Shown here in pieces: positions 58,814 through 64,000 of a stretch of 64,000 nt of DNA. Position 1 is the first letter of the stretch. Every line of letters begins with the position of its first letter. Below the pieces are notes generated by a model that saw only the letters and a list, made by a program, of their open reading frames with translations, was not told where the DNA came from and searched no databases. The DNA lies in the sequence record MT478991.1; one strand, 5' to 3'. A program made the position numbers and the translations under genes. Source of the stretch: Escherichia phage vB_EcoM_011D4.

Positions 58814-59331
58814 TGACAGAAACTAAACCTATGTTAAAATTTGTTGTTCCTGTAAAAAAATTAGAGATAAACGGGAAACATATTAAGATCCCAAAAATGG
58901 GGATTAAGCAACATCGATTATTAAAAGATGTTCGTAGCTGTGATGAAACATTAAAGATTCTTCTTGATTCAATCTGTCCTGGGTTAAACGCTGCCGAGTC
59001 TGAATTGGTTATGCTTAACCTTTGTGCGTTTAATGGTAAGTGTCTGGAAGAAAAAGATGGTCTTAAGCTGTCTGATGTGTATATTTGTACAGAGACCGAA
59101 TTTACTTTAAATGGTAAAGTCTTTAAATTTAAAAATCCAATGTATACTTCTGACCCCATTATCGATGACGCTGATTTCTTGAGTCATCATTATCACGATC
59201 CTAGCGTAGACTTCCATGATTTCCCAGCTTTTATTATGGATTGGGCTACAGGATTAAGAAAAACTATTGCACTGGATACACCGGAAGGTACTATCTATGG
59301 TGGAATTAACATATTGGATCGCCTATCATGA
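58813..59331 (+). CDS. 28: baseplate hub distal subunit gp28
   Basis: 172 aa; position and size match T4 gp28. Confidence 0.7.
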   Translation: MTETKPMLKFVVPVKKLEINGKHIKIPKMGIKQHRLLKDVRSCDETLKILLDSICPGLNAAESELVMLNLCAFNGKCLEEKDGLKLSDVYICTETEFTLNGKVFKFKNPMYTSDPIIDDADFLSHHYHDPSVDFHDFPAFIMDWATGLRKTIALDTPEGTIYGGINILDRLS

Positions 59332-61061
59332 ATGACGCATTAACATCATTTCGCGGGATGCGCAAGGAAGCGGAAGAAAACCCGATTGATAAACTTAACA
59401 AGTTAGATAAACTTGATTCTATTGATAATTTGCAAGCCGCTACCGAATTGGTGGCAGAGACAGTAGAACAAAAATCTAATGAAGTTGTTGGTGCGGTAGA
59501 GGATAACACCGCAGCCAATGAATTGACGGCAGAGAATACCCAATCTACCGCTGGCAATACCCAAAAAACTTATGAAGAATTGCAAAAACTCAATAATTTC
59601 TCTTCTCAGATGAATGAGAAATTACGTGGTTTTGGTGTTATGATGGAACGTAGATTTGGTGTTGTCAGTAAAATGGCTAGCGGTATTGGTGCGATTGAAG
59701 AAGCACTGAAAAAACCGGAACAACCGCAAACAATGCCATCACCTCAGCCAGTTTTGCCTACTGTACCGGAACAGCCTAATAATGACAACTATCAAGGTCT
59801 TCCAAAGAAAAAACCAGATGTTGAGGAACGGAAGAAAAAGAACGCCGCAGATAAGCGTAATGCGGATTCTATGGAAAATCTTCTTAAAGTTGTTCGTGGA
59901 GGATTTAAAGAAACCATAGGCATCTCTAATAAGGTCTTAGGGATGTTATTTAAGATCACCTTGACCGCTATGGCAGAAGCCGCAAAATGGGGCGCTATTT
60001 TGATGGGTATTGTTTTTGCCATCGATACCCTTATGATTCATTTCAGATATTGGAGTGATTTATTCGAAACACAATTCGATGAATTTATGGATAAGGCCGG
60101 AGAATGGGCTGGACCAATTAGTGATATTCTAACAACTATTCGTCAAGTTCGAGATTATTGGTCTAAAGGTGAATATGGAGAATTAATTAAATCGCTGGTT
60201 ATGGGTATTGGTGATGCATTCTATAAAACCTTTATCCAACTTGATCGAATTATCACTACTGGTATTGCTAAAATTCTTCGCATGATCCCTGGTATGGGTG
60301 ATTATGCCGATAAGTTAGAATATGGTGCTTTAAAATCTGCTGTCGCTCAAGGCTATACGCCAAATGAAAGAGAACTCGAATTAATGGATAAGGTCGAGTC
60401 TGAACACGAAGAGGACAAATACGGGGAGCGCACAGGGTGGACCGGAAAAGCCCGTGATATTGGCGAAGCTATTGGGGATTCTATTAAGGATAAAGTTAAC
60501 GAAGGTCTTGTTAGTCTGGGTTGGAGAGATCAAAAGGATGTTGACGCAGAGAAACGACAAGAAGAGTTAAAGCGCGGGGAATACAAGTCTGTTTCTGCTG
60601 AACAACGATCTGCTAGTCGTAAACTTAAAATTAAAAGCGAGGGAGCGATCAATAATATTAATGAAGTTATGGAGAATTTGAGCGGTGACTATGACAAAGA
60701 AAGAATGGGAGAGTTGAAAAAGGATATTGATGTTTACCGTGAGAAAGTTCAAGATCCTACATTAGTTGAAAGTGATCGTTCTCAGTTAGAGCGTCTTATT
60801 GAAAAATTTGATGAGATGTATGCTGATAAAACTAAGGGTGTTGTGCAAACACAGCCAGTTCCGGCAACTGAAACGGAAACAGCAAAACAAGCGGAGCGTA
60901 CTGAACAAATGCAGAAACAAGCTGCAATCCAGCAACAAACGACAAATCAGACCTCAAACGTAAATAATACACAAATTGTAACAAACAATAGAACTATTAA
61001 ACAGGGTGCACCAACAACTAGAATTGATGCCCCCGGTACAATTAATATGGGGAACTTTTAA
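59328..61061 (+). CDS. 29: baseplate hub / tail length determinator gp29
   Basis: 577 aa, long alpha-helical with hydrophobic segment; position and size match T4 gp29. Confidence 0.75.
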   Translation: MNDALTSFRGMRKEAEENPIDKLNKLDKLDSIDNLQAATELVAETVEQKSNEVVGAVEDNTAANELTAENTQSTAGNTQKTYEELQKLNNFSSQMNEKLRGFGVMMERRFGVVSKMASGIGAIEEALKKPEQPQTMPSPQPVLPTVPEQPNNDNYQGLPKKKPDVEERKKKNAADKRNADSMENLLKVVRGGFKETIGISNKVLGMLFKITLTAMAEAAKWGAILMGIVFAIDTLMIHFRYWSDLFETQFDEFMDKAGEWAGPISDILTTIRQVRDYWSKGEYGELIKSLVMGIGDAFYKTFIQLDRIITTGIAKILRMIPGMGDYADKLEYGALKSAVAQGYTPNERELELMDKVESEHEEDKYGERTGWTGKARDIGEAIGDSIKDKVNEGLVSLGWRDQKDVDAEKRQEELKRGEYKSVSAEQRSASRKLKIKSEGAINNINEVMENLSGDYDKERMGELKKDIDVYREKVQDPTLVESDRSQLERLIEKFDEMYADKTKGVVQTQPVPATETETAKQAERTEQMQKQAAIQQQTTNQTSNVNNTQIVTNNRTIKQGAPTTRIDAPGTINMGNF

Positions 61062-62119
61062 TGAAAATTAGTGTTATCAATGATGCCGTTGATAGCTTTA
61101 AAGCGGGGGTTAAAACCTCCGCTGGTTTTACCTCAAAAAATAAAGGGAAAACATTAACCGCTCAATTCCCCGCTGAACGTGCTAGCGGTAATGATGCTAG
61201 CGGTTATTATATCAACGACTTATATAATAATGGTCTGTTATTCACTGCATACGATTATACATCTCGTACTACTGGATCGTTGCGTGATTTCAGGAAAAAG
61301 AAAAATGTTGCTAGCGGTTTTGGCGGTAGCGTTAATATCGCTGGTTTTGATTTAAATTTGGGTGGGAGAAATGCTGCATTTGACCGAGAGGCAATTGCTA
61401 ATATTCTTCTTCCTCGTAGTCAATCTGACGTTGACGCTGCTAGCCATAAGTTTAATGATGTTGGTGAATCTGTCATTTCTCGCGGCGGTGGTACTTTAGG
61501 CGGTGCTCTTTCTAATATGGCATCTACTGCCGTTTTTGGTGGTATCGAAAGTATTACTGGTGGATACCTTGCCGATCACGGTGAACAGATTTATAATACT
61601 GCGCGAAGCATGTATGCGGGTGCTGACGCACGAACTAAAAACTACGTATGGCATCTAACCCCACGTAGTATTGAAGACCTTCGCAATATTCTGATCATAT
61701 ACGAAACGTTTTTAGAATTGTCTTATGGTTCTAGTGGTATTTCCAGCACCGCAAAAGAATTAAAAGCGGAAGTTGATGCGTGGTATAAAAAAACACTATT
61801 GAGAAAATCCACCCCAGAGGAAGCGAAGAGAAATGATACTCTGTTTGAAGGGATCACCGATTTTCTATCAAACGCAATTACTGTATCTAACCCGACAATA
61901 TGGATGATCTCTAACTTCGGTAAGCGTACATCGTTTGAAGGGCGTAGCGATGCATTTGGTCCCGCTCAGATCTCAAGTGTACGTCTGGACAAGTCGCCTG
62001 ATGGTAAGTTTAATGGCCTTGCTATTTCTCCTAACTTGCCGAGTACCTTTGTTCTGGAAGTATCATTTAGAGAGATCTTGACACTTTCCCGTGGTACTAT
62101 ATTTGGGAGTGCGGCATAA
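61061..62119 (+). CDS. 48: baseplate-tail tube junction protein gp48
   Basis: 352 aa; position and size match T4 gp48. Confidence 0.75.
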   Translation: MKISVINDAVDSFKAGVKTSAGFTSKNKGKTLTAQFPAERASGNDASGYYINDLYNNGLLFTAYDYTSRTTGSLRDFRKKKNVASGFGGSVNIAGFDLNLGGRNAAFDREAIANILLPRSQSDVDAASHKFNDVGESVISRGGGTLGGALSNMASTAVFGGIESITGGYLADHGEQIYNTARSMYAGADARTKNYVWHLTPRSIEDLRNILIIYETFLELSYGSSGISSTAKELKAEVDAWYKKTLLRKSTPEEAKRNDTLFEGITDFLSNAITVSNPTIWMISNFGKRTSFEGRSDAFGPAQISSVRLDKSPDGKFNGLAISPNLPSTFVLEVSFREILTLSRGTIFGSAA

Positions 62120-63051
62120 TGTTTGATTTAAATGACTTTAACGAACAAGCCGCTAACCTTGACTTTCAGCGATCTAACTTATTCAGCGTGGCATTTGCCA
62201 CCACTCCAAGTAATAAGACACAAGCGATCCTAGAAAGTATGGGCGGTGCGGTATATGATATTATACCAAATGCATTAAATGACTATTTCGGGATTACTCG
62301 TGGTGATTATACTGACGCATTAACAAATCTTGCTGTACAGGGTGTTAGGCGTGCTGTTGATTCATCCGGTGTCAAAAAGTATCTTTTAGGTGCAATGTCA
62401 TCCCGCGTAGTTCAATCTCTTCTGGGGCAATTTGATGTTGGTACGTATGCGCTTGACTGGTTCAATATGGCATATAAGACAAGCGGTCTTCTGGTGTATG
62501 CTGTTAAGGTTCCAGAAAACAGATTGAATTATGAAATGGACCGTAACCACAATGCGCCAAACATTCGAATTACCGGACGTGATTTTGATCCGCTTGTATT
62601 GAGCTTTAGAATGGACTCTAGCGCATCAAACTATAGAGCAATGCAGGATTGGGTTAACTCAGTAGAAGACCCCGTTACAGGGCTTCGTGCGCTTCCTGTT
62701 GACGTTGAAGCAGATATTCAGGTCAACTTACATAACCGAATGGGAGTTCCTCACACGATCATGATGTTTAATGGTTGTGTTCCTGTTGGTGTGAGTGCAC
62801 CGGAATTAAACTATGAAAACAACAACGAAATCACAACATTCGATGTTACTTTCGCATATCGTTCTATGCAAACTGGTGCTGTAGGAGAGCAAGCCGCGCG
62901 AGAATGGATTGAGGATAAGGCAATAAACGCAATAACAAACACGTTCGGCAATAATTTACTTGATAGTGGGTTATCTGCTGCTGGTAATGCTTTATCGCGT
63001 CTAAATGGCGTTGGTGGGCGTGTGGTGAATACTGTCACTAACTGGTTCTGA
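62119..63051 (+). CDS. 54: baseplate-tail tube initiator gp54
   Basis: 310 aa; position and size match T4 gp54. Confidence 0.75.
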   Translation: MFDLNDFNEQAANLDFQRSNLFSVAFATTPSNKTQAILESMGGAVYDIIPNALNDYFGITRGDYTDALTNLAVQGVRRAVDSSGVKKYLLGAMSSRVVQSLLGQFDVGTYALDWFNMAYKTSGLLVYAVKVPENRLNYEMDRNHNAPNIRITGRDFDPLVLSFRMDSSASNYRAMQDWVNSVEDPVTGLRALPVDVEADIQVNLHNRMGVPHTIMMFNGCVPVGVSAPELNYENNNEITTFDVTFAYRSMQTGAVGEQAAREWIEDKAINAITNTFGNNLLDSGLSAAGNALSRLNGVGGRVVNTVTNWF

Positions 63052-63057
63052 TAAGCG

Positions 63058-63084
63058 AAAGGCGGGGATAATCCCCGCCTTTTT
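63058..63084. terminator. bidirectional rho-independent terminator
   Basis: hairpin ggcgggg-ataa-tccccgcc with T-run on plus; lies between convergent gene 54 (+) and lipoprotein gene (-). Confidence 0.6.
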
Positions 63085-63598
63085 ATTTGATTAAATCATC
63101 ACATTGTTTGCGTAGTTTATAGCGATACTGTTTTGATTGTAGCAATTGAAGTTTTTCATAATCCCCTTCCTCATATGCAGCCGAAAGATCATCTTGATAT
63201 GCTGCTTCCGTCCCGATTACACATACTCCAAATTTTCTACGACGGTCGGCATCTTCCATTGCTTTGCGATTCATTTCTTCAATTGAATTTTCATGACCAT
63301 AATAATATTCGTAAATGCGTTTCTTCTCTGCTTCTTTATCTGCCTTAATCTTTGCGATCTGTTCTGCTGATTCCGGTTGACGACCTAAACGCTGTAATGA
63401 GGCGTCTTTCTTTTCAAGGTAGTCAATAACGCAATCTTCAACGCTATTAAATGGAAAACGTGACTCTTTCTGCCATCGTTCACATGACCGTACAAACTCG
63501 TGTGTATTCTTAGATGCAAGTGCCAGATCATGCACAGCGCACCCATTAAGCATAGCCACTAAAGCCGCAGCAAGACCAATCAGTTTAATCATTTTCAT
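63083..63598 (-). CDS. putative lipoprotein
   Basis: 171 aa; signal peptide with lipobox-like LNGC; Lys/Glu-rich helical body; start ATG overlaps the stop of the upstream ART gene. Confidence 0.5.
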   Translation of the reverse strand: MKMIKLIGLAAALVAMLNGCAVHDLALASKNTHEFVRSCERWQKESRFPFNSVEDCVIDYLEKKDASLQRLGRQPESAEQIAKIKADKEAEKKRIYEYYYGHENSIEEMNRKAMEDADRRRKFGVCVIGTEAAYQDDLSAAYEEGDYEKLQLLQSKQYRYKLRKQCDDLIK

Positions 63599-64000
63599 TT
63601 AGTCACCTCACCGAAAATTGTAAATTGTCTACGATTCTCATCACCGAAAGATTCTACTACGTCGTTTACCTTGACGCAAGTCCCGCGCGGTAAAATTACT
63701 TCACATTCGCAAGGATTCCATGCAATTGACCCAACAACAAAACCTTTATGATCTTTTACGTCAATTACCCACGATACATTACAAGAATGTTGCATCTTTC
63801 CGGTCATGGATTCATATCGATTCTCACAATAAAGGCTAGTGCTGTTTGATAGCCAGCCTCCAAAGATGATCGGTGTCATGCTGGTTGACACAAAGTTTTT
63901 AAAGGTAAATTCCTTATCTTCAATAATACGCTCTATTGTCTGAATGTCAAGATGTTGACCGCGATAAAGAGTACCGTTTAACTTTTCGGTTTTATCCATG
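63595..64000 (-). CDS. ADP-ribosyltransferase domain protein (R-S-E fold; possibly 5'-partial at window edge; T4 alt position)
   Basis: at least 134 aa; LYRG (Arg), STS and CECEV (E-x-E) in the order and spacing of the ART R-S-ExE catalytic triad; ATG at 63997-63999 but the ORF may continue beyond the window. Confidence 0.55.
   Translation of the reverse strand, partial: MDKTEKLNGTLYRGQHLDIQTIERIIEDKEFTFKNFVSTSMTPIIFGGWLSNSTSLYCENRYESMTGKMQHSCNVSWVIDVKDHKGFVVGSIAWNPCECEVILPRGTCVKVNDVVESFGDENRRQFTIFGEVTK

What the first reader, a model, noticed from the sequence alone, without database searches (positions are those of the whole stretch)
63083..64000. Minimal ADP-ribosyltransferase translationally coupled to a lipoprotein-like gene at the alt position
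The edge ORF shows the R (LYRG), STS and E-x-E (CECEV) elements in canonical ART order within about 100 residues, much shorter than T4 Alt. Its stop overlaps the start of a 171-aa ORF with a lipoprotein-type signal peptide (LNGC lipobox-like). An ART coupled to a membrane-anchored partner is not the T4 arrangement and could be a toxin with a modulator or an envelope-targeted effector. The ART N-terminus may lie outside the window.
Basis: partly seen in the sequence, partly recalled or inferred. Interest (0 to 1): 0.6.

Follow-up and report, generated by a model that had tools for sequence, protein, structure and literature searches.

The report
Alt-paralog ART plus hypervariable phage lipoprotein
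The window ends inside an already annotated 274-residue second copy of the phage T4-type Alt ADP-ribosyltransferase, which is co-expressed with a small exported lipoprotein; the enzyme is ordinary, while the lipoprotein is swapped as a cassette between otherwise near-identical phages.

Summary
The window comes from a Krischvirus (RB49/Phi1-like T4-type coliphage; 99.6% identical to phage E26). The R, STS and E-x-E motifs and the ATGA stop/start overlap are real. The edge ORF is cut by the window. In E26, Phi1 and RB49 it is a 274-aa protein (RB49p183/phi1p183) whose last 134 residues match the window exactly. It is a complete C3-like ART domain, not a ~100-residue minimal one. It is not alt either: a full-length 683-aa alt lies directly upstream, outside the window. 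Nolan et al. 2006 already described this ORF as a paralogous duplication of alt. It has a sigma-70-type promoter of its own. The 171-aa partner belongs to a tiny orphan family with an invariant lipobox Cys and four further invariant Cys; the window allele has an atypical L-N-G-C lipobox. The order alt, short ART, lipoprotein and the tight junction persist in distant metagenomic relatives, but overlapping genes are the norm in this genome. The ART has no export signal, so a toxin-modulator pair is unlikely. The new point is that the mature lipoprotein is a sharply bounded hypervariable cassette (25-44% identity between allele groups; ART 97-100%). Low interest for the ART, modest for the lipoprotein.

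The parts
63595..63999 (-). Codons 141-274 plus stop of a 274-aa Alt-paralog ADP-ribosyltransferase (orthologue of RB49p183 / phi1p183), cut by the window edge. Arg motif LYRG 63958-63969, STS 63880-63888, E-C-E 63700-63708.
   Evidence: PF03496 E=2.3e-9 on the fragment and 4.3e-16 on the full protein. phrog_15144 E=2.6e-198.
63083..63598 (-). 171-aa lipoprotein-type precursor. Signal peptide 63542-63598, lipobox L-N-G-C 63539-63550, acylation Cys20 63539-63541. Mature part is all-helical with Cys39, Cys56, Cys126 and Cys166 (63482-84, 63431-33, 63221-23, 63101-03).
   Evidence: phrog_16112, unknown function. AF2 pLDDT 79.6, seven helices.
63595..63609 (-). Junction: Shine-Dalgarno GAGGTG (63604-63609) and ATGA stop/start overlap (63595-63598).
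   Evidence: Equally tight junctions (ATGA, TAAcATG, TAATG) in distant relatives L006, L008 and L009.
63057..63083 (.). GC-rich hairpin between the convergent gene 54 and the lipoprotein gene. It serves as terminator for gene 54 (T-run on the + strand) and probably ends the ART-lipoprotein transcript.
   Evidence: (same hairpin at L001 6158-6184, 12 pairs).
62119..63051 (+). Gene 54 (baseplate tail tube initiator), convergent neighbour. It fixes the locus as the 54/alt junction of T4-type genomes.

Best explanation
The window ends inside a two-gene early operon of a Krischvirus. Gene 1 is a 274-aa paralogue of Alt. It keeps a complete C3-like, arginine-type (E-x-E) mono-ADP-ribosyltransferase domain. 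It has lost the ~330-400 N-terminal residues and the ~90 C-terminal residues of Alt. The true 683-aa alt lies immediately upstream. Inferred: because the short ART has a sigma-70-type promoter of its own and lacks Alt's N-terminal part, it is made de novo early in infection and ADP-ribosylates cytoplasmic host proteins. It would thus act alongside the injected Alt and the ModB-like enzyme, in a genus with no detectable ModA. Gene 2 is translated from the same mRNA (ATGA overlap). It is exported, probably lipid-anchored to the outer membrane (Ala at +2) and stabilised by two disulfides, and it acts in the periplasm. The two products therefore work in different compartments, and the coupling means co-expression, not a toxin-modulator pair. 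Inferred with much less certainty: the lipoprotein acts at the envelope under diversifying selection. My preferred guess is exclusion of superinfecting relatives at the injection step, or another envelope-protection role.
For: Identity of the ART: 100% identical to residues 141-274 of the E26 and Phi1 protein. PF03496 at 59.3 bits. It aligns to T4 Alt 413-593 (31%, 6e-23) and to positions 330-602 of 674 in the Alt profile phrog_802. RefSeq notes 'similar to C-terminal part of T4 Alt'. Nolan 2006 calls it a paralogous duplication of alt (PMC1524935). The R, STS and ExE residues are invariant in 8 homologues down to 24% identity. Foldseek gives Vis, C3bot and Certhrax at E~4e-10. Own promoter: TTGACT-17-TATACT inside the alt terminator hairpin, with TTGACA-17-TAGAAT and TTGACA-17-TATACT in the diverged loci L006 and L009. 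ART repertoire: the RB49 genome holds Alt, this ART and a ModB-like gene, and no ModA. Lipoprotein: G19, C20 and four further Cys are invariant across 14 members. There are two Lys in the n-region, a hydrophobic h-region and Ala at +2. Cassette: E26 versus Phi1 nucleotide identity is 95-100% through alt and the ART. It drops to 35-53% just after the signal peptide and is back at 96% from the first 60-nt window past the lipoprotein stop codon. Mature alleles are 25-44% identical between the three Krischvirus groups, while the ART is 97-100%. Synteny alt, short ART, lipoprotein, then convergent gp54 holds in L006, L008 and L009.
Confidence: 0.6

Rival explanations
1. Toxin plus modulator or immunity pair: the lipoprotein controls or neutralises the ART, or directs it to the envelope.
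For: Overlapping stop/start. The gene pair and tight junction persist at 28-43% ART identity. The nearest PDB sequence hit is the T6SS effector Tre1, which has an immunity partner (E=0.066).
Against: The ART has no signal peptide or hydrophobic segment (maximum Kyte-Doolittle 1.2 over 15 aa), whereas the partner has a signal peptide and four conserved Cys typical of oxidised periplasmic proteins. The partner has no macro or ARH domain and no PADLOC match for the window allele. The partner is swapped between phages with identical ARTs, which is the opposite of what a co-adapted binding pair predicts. Overlap is the default gene junction in this genome (10 of 17 pairs).
Confidence: 0.05
2. The lipoprotein is a receptor-masking exclusion protein of the Cor/Llp type that blocks the phage's own outer-membrane receptor.
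For: It is a small phage-encoded outer-membrane-type lipoprotein, probably expressed early and hypervariable. There is a weak phrog_1119 (Cor) hit for the Phi1 allele (E=0.0074).
Against: The Cor hit covers only the signal peptide (residues 1-45) and is absent for the window allele. Krischviruses FL04 and FL15 (receptor Tsx) and FL20 (receptor OmpA) carry the same allele with 0-2 amino-acid differences, so the allele does not follow receptor specificity.
Confidence: 0.1
3. The short ART is a decaying remnant of a tandem alt duplication with no function of its own, like T4 alt.-1 and alt.-2.
For: The locus downstream of alt holds duplicates in various states of decay or splitting. T4 alt.-1 and alt.-2 are one case. 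Another is a split 273-aa plus 415-aa second copy in a Tequatrovirus-like contig. Duplicates in 44RR are a third (PMC1524935).
Against: All catalytic motifs are invariant down to 24% identity. The ORF is intact and 97-100% identical in the Krischviruses compared, and the locus is present in 58 records. It has a conserved promoter-like site and a strong SD. The fold is confidently predicted (pTM 0.75).
Confidence: 0.05
4. The window allele is not lipidated. Its Asn at -2 makes it a signal-peptidase-I-cleaved soluble periplasmic protein rather than a lipoprotein.
For: L-N-G-C fails the PS51257-like pattern. G-C-A would fit an SPase I -3/-1 site (my reading of the sequence).
Against: Gly-1 and Cys+1 are invariant across the family. 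The LNGC signal peptide occurs with both type A and type B mature parts (JK32) and in several metagenomic clusters, so it is maintained. Only the -2 position deviates.
Confidence: 0.2

Closest known systems
T4 Alt (NAD-protein ADP-ribosyltransferase injected with the DNA) and its Krischvirus orthologue (RB49p184, 683 aa)
   Same: Homologous catalytic module: LYRG/S, FVSTS and E-x-E-VILPRG. 31% identity to T4 Alt 413-593, 37% to the phage's own Alt 487-593. Same locus next to gene 54.
   Different: 274 vs 682-683 aa. It lacks the N-terminal ~330-400 residues (the PF26846 Tevenvirinae_ADPRT domain is recorded on the neighbouring Alt but not on the short ARTs). It also lacks the C-terminal ~90 residues. 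It is preceded by a sigma-70-like promoter rather than the CATAAATA late-like motif seen upstream of alt. It is a paralogue that coexists with the true alt.
T4 ModA / ModB (about 200-aa early ARTs)
   Same: Similar size class. Probably made de novo early in infection. E-x-E arginine-type motif (ModA EQEV, ModB EQEW visible).
   Different: No BLAST similarity (best E=5.6-7.7). Different locus. RB49 has a separate ModB-like gene at the syntenic place and no detectable ModA.
C3 exoenzymes / Vis / Certhrax / Iota-CDTa catalytic domains (PF03496)
   Same: Predicted fold and motif order. Foldseek E about 4e-10, ~215 aligned columns.
   Different: 13-20% identity. Extra ~60-residue helical N-terminus. 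A low-confidence 25-residue insertion after the STS motif (residues 186-210).
T4 alt.-1 / alt.-2 / alt.-3 (the ORFs at this position in T4)
   Same: Same map position between alt and gene 54. alt.-1 and alt.-2 are also products of an alt duplication.
   Different: The T4 remnants derive from the 5' part of alt and have no ART domain. alt.-3 (96 aa, DUF5498) has no signal peptide and no similarity to the lipoprotein.
Phage exclusion lipoproteins Cor (phi80/N15) and Llp (T5)
   Same: Small phage-encoded lipoprotein with an outer-membrane sorting signal.
   Different: No homology beyond the signal peptide. More than twice as long. Helical with four conserved Cys. The allele does not track receptor type.

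Membership tests
R-S-E ADP-ribosyltransferases (Pfam PF03496, C2/C3-like) | Profile match above the curated threshold | tested here: met
   Full protein 59.3 bits, window fragment 37.3 bits, cut-off 23.4.
R-S-E ADP-ribosyltransferases (Pfam PF03496, C2/C3-like) | Catalytic Arg, S-T-S and E-x-E in order, conserved in relatives | tested here: met
   R153, S178-T-S180 and E238-C-E240 are invariant in 8 homologues.
R-S-E ADP-ribosyltransferases (Pfam PF03496, C2/C3-like) | C3-like fold (N-terminal helices plus beta-sandwich core) | tested here: met
   AF2 pTM 0.75. Foldseek hits Vis, C3bot2 and Certhrax at E 4e-10 to 6e-10.
R-S-E ADP-ribosyltransferases (Pfam PF03496, C2/C3-like) | NAD-dependent transfer of ADP-ribose to a protein Arg | not testable with these tools
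   Needs a biochemical assay.
Alt orthologues (full-length, virion-packaged) | About 680 aa with the N-terminal Tevenvirinae_ADPRT domain | tested here: not met
   274 aa. It aligns only to Alt profile positions 330-602. PF26846 is recorded on the neighbouring Alt but not on the short ARTs.
Alt orthologues (full-length, virion-packaged) | Single alt gene at the locus | tested here: not met
   A separate 683-aa alt lies directly upstream.
ModA/ModB | Sequence similarity to T4 ModA or ModB | tested here: not met
   BLASTP E>5. The ModB-like gene of RB49 is elsewhere.
Bacterial lipoproteins (Lgt/LspA substrates) | Positively charged n-region and hydrophobic h-region | tested here: met
   K2 and K5. 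Mean Kyte-Doolittle 1.9 over the 11 residues before -1.
Bacterial lipoproteins (Lgt/LspA substrates) | Lipobox [LVI][ASTVI][GAS]C / PS51257-type pattern | tested here: inconclusive
   The window allele L-N-G-C fails at -2. Six of nine family members checked pass with L/M-T-G-C. Gly-1 and Cys+1 are invariant.
Bacterial lipoproteins (Lgt/LspA substrates) | Actual diacylglyceryl modification and LspA cleavage | not testable with these tools
   Needs globomycin or labelling experiments. No SignalP or LipoP was available.
Cor/Llp exclusion lipoproteins | Homology of the mature part | tested here: not met
   phrog_1119 matches only residues 1-45 of the Phi1 allele (E=0.0074) and gives nothing for the window allele.
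ART toxin-immunity pairs (Tre1-Tri1, DarTG type) | Partner with an ARH or macro domain, or a cognate cytoplasmic binder | tested here: not met
   No Pfam, NCBIfam or PDB match for the partner family, and no PADLOC match for the window allele; only the Phi1 allele has a weak PADLOC hit (PDC-M38A, E=0.0051). The partner is exported. Alleles are exchanged beside an unchanged ART.

The most novel reading that the evidence does not exclude
The alt-paralog ART and the lipoprotein form a real functional module spanning two compartments. For example, the ART could modify the lipoprotein precursor or the export or outer-membrane biogenesis machinery, or the lipoprotein could sense or relay an envelope event that the ART answers in the cytoplasm. 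That would explain why the pair and its tight junction survive at 28-43% ART identity. A less exotic version: the lipoprotein is a new hypervariable superinfection-exclusion or anti-defence determinant whose allele lineages are older than the phage lineages that carry them.
Probability: 0.07. Interest if true: 0.7.

Novelty: already known. Interest (0 to 1): 0.27.

Why it matters
The ART adds nothing new. It is RB49 ORF183, annotated in RefSeq and published in 2006 as an alt paralogue, although never studied experimentally. It does show that Krischviruses carry three ARTs of a different make-up from T4: Alt, a short Alt paralogue and a ModB-like enzyme, with no ModA. That is a natural system for asking what an Alt catalytic module does when it is synthesised early instead of injected. 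The lipoprotein is the more useful lead. It belongs to an orphan family found only in Krischvirus-like phages. Its mature part is replaced as a precise cassette between phages that are about 98% identical on both sides. That pattern usually marks proteins in an arms race, such as exclusion, receptor or defence interactions, and it could matter for designing phage cocktails from this genus.

Tried and rejected
1. Minimal (~100 aa) ART: rejected. The full protein is 274 aa and the fold alignment spans ~215 columns.
2. The edge ORF is a truncated full-length Alt: rejected. The real alt is a separate upstream gene.
3. ModA/ModB homologue: rejected, no similarity.
5. Exhaustive profile search of 1.84 billion representatives: 9 hits. 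Seven are genuine lipoprotein family members. One is a 103-aa frame-shifted fragment (P0015). One is a spurious 489-aa tandem-repeat protein (P0012).
6. Receptor covariation: rejected on the small sample available.
7. Replacement of T4 Imm/Sp: inconclusive. There is no Imm hit in RB49, but there is a weak Sp-like hit at E=0.049. The collection-wide tblastn outputs could not resolve whether Krischviruses are among the hits.
8. Late promoter TATAAATA in front of the ART: none.
9. Literature on the lipoprotein (ORF182): nothing found.

Full report
WHERE THE WINDOW COMES FROM. The last 1.1 kb of the window is 99.6% identical to Escherichia phage E26. It is 97-99% identical, outside one divergent segment, to 58 records of the genus Krischvirus, including RB49, Phi1, GEC-3S and JSE. 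The plus strand ends with genes 29, 48 and 54 (59328-63051). The finding lies on the minus strand, convergent with gene 54.

CHECK OF THE OBSERVATION. The minus-strand ORF at 63595-63999 reads MDKTEKLNGTLYRGQ...FVSTSM...NPCECEVILPRG...EVTK. LYRG is at 63958-63969, STS at 63880-63888 and E-C-E at 63700-63708. The 134-residue fragment alone scores 37.3 bits (E=2.3e-9) against Pfam PF03496, whose cut-off is 23.4. The motifs are therefore a real ADP-ribosyltransferase signature.

The stop TGA and the next ATG overlap as ATGA (63595-63598), with GAGGTG five bases upstream. The next ORF (63083-63598, 171 aa) begins MKMIKLIGLAAALVAMLNGCAVH.

What is not as described is the extent of the ART. The reading frame is open to the window edge, and the ATG at 63999 is an internal methionine. 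In E26, Phi1 and RB49 the gene encodes 274 residues (L001 6693-7517, phi1p183, RB49p183). Residues 141-274 are 100% identical to the window fragment.

WHAT THE ART IS. The 274-aa protein matches PF03496 over residues 82-266 (59.3 bits). It is the type member of phrog_15144, 'ADP-ribosyltransferase' (E=2.6e-198). It aligns to positions 330-602 of the 674-position Alt profile phrog_802 (E=3e-45).

By BLASTP it aligns to T4 Alt residues 413-593 (31%, 6e-23) and to the phage's own Alt residues 487-593 (37%, 6e-16). It shows nothing to T4 ModA or ModB. A full-length 683-aa alt lies 78 bp upstream, just outside the window. The edge ORF is therefore a paralogue of alt, not alt.

This is already on record. 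RefSeq annotates RB49p183 as 'similar to C-terminal part of T4 Alt protein'. Nolan et al. 2006 list RB49ORF183c, 44RRORF188c and T4 alt.-1/alt.-2 as paralogous duplications of alt (PMC1524935).

In eight homologues down to 24% identity, the following are invariant: Y108, N117, L120, L151-Y-R-G-Q155, F173, N175, S178-T-S180 and E238-x-E240-V-I-L-P-R245. The AlphaFold model (pLDDT 79.7, pTM 0.75) matches Vis, C3bot2, Certhrax and the Iota/CDTa catalytic domains at E about 4e-10 over ~215 columns. The protein is a ~60-residue helical N-terminus plus a complete C3-like domain, so 'minimal within about 100 residues' is wrong. The E-x-E form of the ARTT motif is the one associated with arginine-specific transferases such as Alt and the Iota/C2 family (established knowledge, not tested here).

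REGULATORY ANATOMY. The 78-bp spacer between alt and the short ART reads TAATTTTTAAGAAATAATGGTTGACTCAAACGGGGACTAGTTTTATACTAGCCCCGTTTTCTGTTATATGGGAGGCTTAAAATG. It contains a hairpin followed by a T-run, a likely terminator for alt. Embedded in the hairpin is TTGACT-17-TATACT (also found by the scan). A GGGAGG Shine-Dalgarno sequence follows.

Consensus promoter matches are no more frequent here than in shuffled sequence, so this one is not evidence by itself. However, TTGACA-17-TAGAAT and TTGACA-17-TATACT sit at the same place in two metagenomic relatives whose ARTs are only 28% and 43% identical (L006, L009). There is no TATAAATA late motif before the ART. Alt itself is preceded by CATAAATA.

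Downstream, the lipoprotein stop codon abuts the 12-pair hairpin at 63057-63083, which is shared with gene 54. I infer a bicistronic, early, host-RNA-polymerase-dependent transcript. This is inference and is not shown.

ART REPERTOIRE. A tblastn search of the complete RB49 genome finds Alt, the short ART and a ModB-like gene (E=1e-7, annotated modB, RB49p014). It finds no ModA. The short paralogue may fill the role of a second early ART. This is speculation.

THE LOCUS IN OTHER T4-TYPE PHAGES. In T4 the place between alt and gene 54 holds alt.-1 and alt.-2, remnants of the 5' part of a duplicated alt, and alt.-3. A Tequatrovirus-like contig carries a second alt copy split into 273 aa (N-domain) plus 415 aa (ART), followed by the alt.-3 family DUF5498 (L011). 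Tandem duplication of alt followed by partial loss is thus recurrent. The Krischvirus lineage kept the catalytic half.

THE 171-AA PARTNER. Searches of 5.8 billion proteins (9 hits) and of 1.84 billion representatives with a profile (9 hits, seven of them genuine family members) show a tiny family. Among 50,697 phage records it occurs only in the 58 Krischvirus records, always next to the short ART.

An alignment of 14 members has as invariant residues M1, G19, C20, C39, C56, D65, G72, C126, G145 and C166. That is the lipobox Gly-Cys plus four cysteines, the signature of an exported, disulfide-bonded protein. Most members have a canonical L/M-T-G-C lipobox. The window allele group has L/I-N-G-C, which fails the PS51257-like pattern at position -2. 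Lipidation of this allele is therefore likely but not certain. Ala at +2 predicts outer-membrane sorting in E. coli (established Lol rule).

IS THE COUPLING MEANINGFUL? The order alt, short ART, lipoprotein, then convergent gp54 is kept in three divergent metagenomic lineages. In these, gp48 is 72-81%, Alt 40-46%, the ART 28-43% and the lipoprotein 25-27% identical to E26. The junctions are ATGA, TAAcATG and TAATG. That is compatible with co-expression.

Overlap or abutment is, however, the rule in this genome: 10 of 17 same-strand neighbour pairs in the 13-kb Phi1 stretch. The ART has no signal peptide or hydrophobic segment and uses NAD, a cytoplasmic cofactor, whereas its partner is exported. 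Phages with identical ARTs also carry lipoproteins only 25-44% identical in their mature part. A co-adapted binding pair would not behave like that. I therefore reject the toxin-modulator reading (about 5%).

THE UNEXPECTED PART. Between E26 and Phi1, nucleotide identity is 95-100% through the 3' end of alt and the whole ART. It falls to 35-53% right after the signal-peptide codons of the lipoprotein gene. It is back at 96% from the first 60-nt window past that gene's stop codon.

The 58 Krischvirus records fall into three allele groups. Five carry the window type, two the JK32/Whisky type and 51 the Phi1/RB49 type. JK32 combines the LNGC signal peptide with the type B mature part. Allele C is closer to the allele of the distant lineage L009 (38%) than to alleles A or B (29%, 25%). 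Allele B is closer to L008 (34%) than to allele C (25%), though still nearest to allele A (44%).

These are old allele lineages exchanged as a cassette, the usual mark of diversifying selection on an interaction surface. The allele does not follow receptor use. FL04 and FL15 (Tsx) and FL20 (OmpA) carry type C with 0-2 differences (PMC12032242). That argues against masking of the phage's own receptor.

RB49 has no detectable Imm and only a weak Sp-like hit (E=0.049). My preferred but weakly supported guess is exclusion of superinfecting relatives at the periplasmic or injection stage, or another envelope role.

VERDICT. The sequence features are real, but the 'minimal ART' is an artefact of the window edge. 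The enzyme is the known, annotated and experimentally unstudied Alt paralogue of Krischviruses, sitting downstream of the real alt. The lipoprotein partner is real, conserved in position and probably co-translated. It works in another compartment and is not a plausible modulator of the ART. The only feature of some interest is its cassette-like hypervariability.

Noticed in passing
window 63083-63541 (mature lipoprotein coding part); L001/L002 alignment columns ~1550-2040: The mature part of the lipoprotein gene is a sharply bounded replacement cassette. E26 versus Phi1 identity is 95-100% on both sides and 35-53% inside. The boundaries are the end of the signal peptide and the stop codon. There are three allele groups in 58 Krischvirus genomes (5, 2 and 51).
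   Followed up: yes
window 63567-63569: A 3-nt in-frame insertion (one extra Ala in the signal-peptide h-region, AAALVAM vs AALVAM) relative to E26, plus one substitution at 63428. These are the only differences from E26 in the last 1.1 kb.
   Followed up: partly
L001 6184-6696 (phage E26, MN655998): The lipoprotein ORF is not annotated at all in the E26 record, which has a gap between gene 54 and the ART, although it is intact and 99.4% identical to the window's.
   Followed up: no
L001 7518-7595 (just beyond the window end): A sigma-70-like promoter (TTGACT-17-TATACT) is embedded in the terminator-like hairpin after alt. The same hexamers and spacing occur in the diverged loci L006 and L009.
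   Followed up: partly
L011 3183-5248 (ENA metagenome contig, Tequatrovirus-like): A second alt copy downstream of alt is split into a 273-aa N-domain ORF and a 415-aa ART ORF with overlapping stop/start, followed by a DUF5498 (alt.-3) gene. It is an intermediate between a full duplication and the T4 remnants alt.-1/alt.-2.
   Followed up: no
L014, L015, L016 alignment columns 2040-2220 and 2760-2900 (3' and 5' parts of gene 54): Gene 54 of PTE-Eco09, JK32 and Whisky is mosaic relative to E26 (55-70% nucleotide identity in patches), adjacent to the lipoprotein cassette.
   Followed up: no
RB49 genome OZ035808 90612-90806 (L022): There is a weak T4 Spackle-like tblastn hit (27% over 74 aa, E=0.049) roughly 3.5 kb from the modB-like gene, in the region corresponding to genes 61-41. 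No hit to T4 Imm or ModA was found anywhere in the genome.
   Followed up: partly
P0012 (489 aa): A protein made of about five tandem copies of a ~100-aa unit hit the lipoprotein profile at E=4e-12 through its charged helical segment. It has no signal peptide and looks like a spurious or assembly-repeat match.
   Followed up: no
L006 1512-2330: In the distant relative, a Gp38_N-domain ORF (153 aa) and a Peptidase_M15 ORF lie a few genes upstream of alt, unlike in Krischvirus isolates.
   Followed up: no
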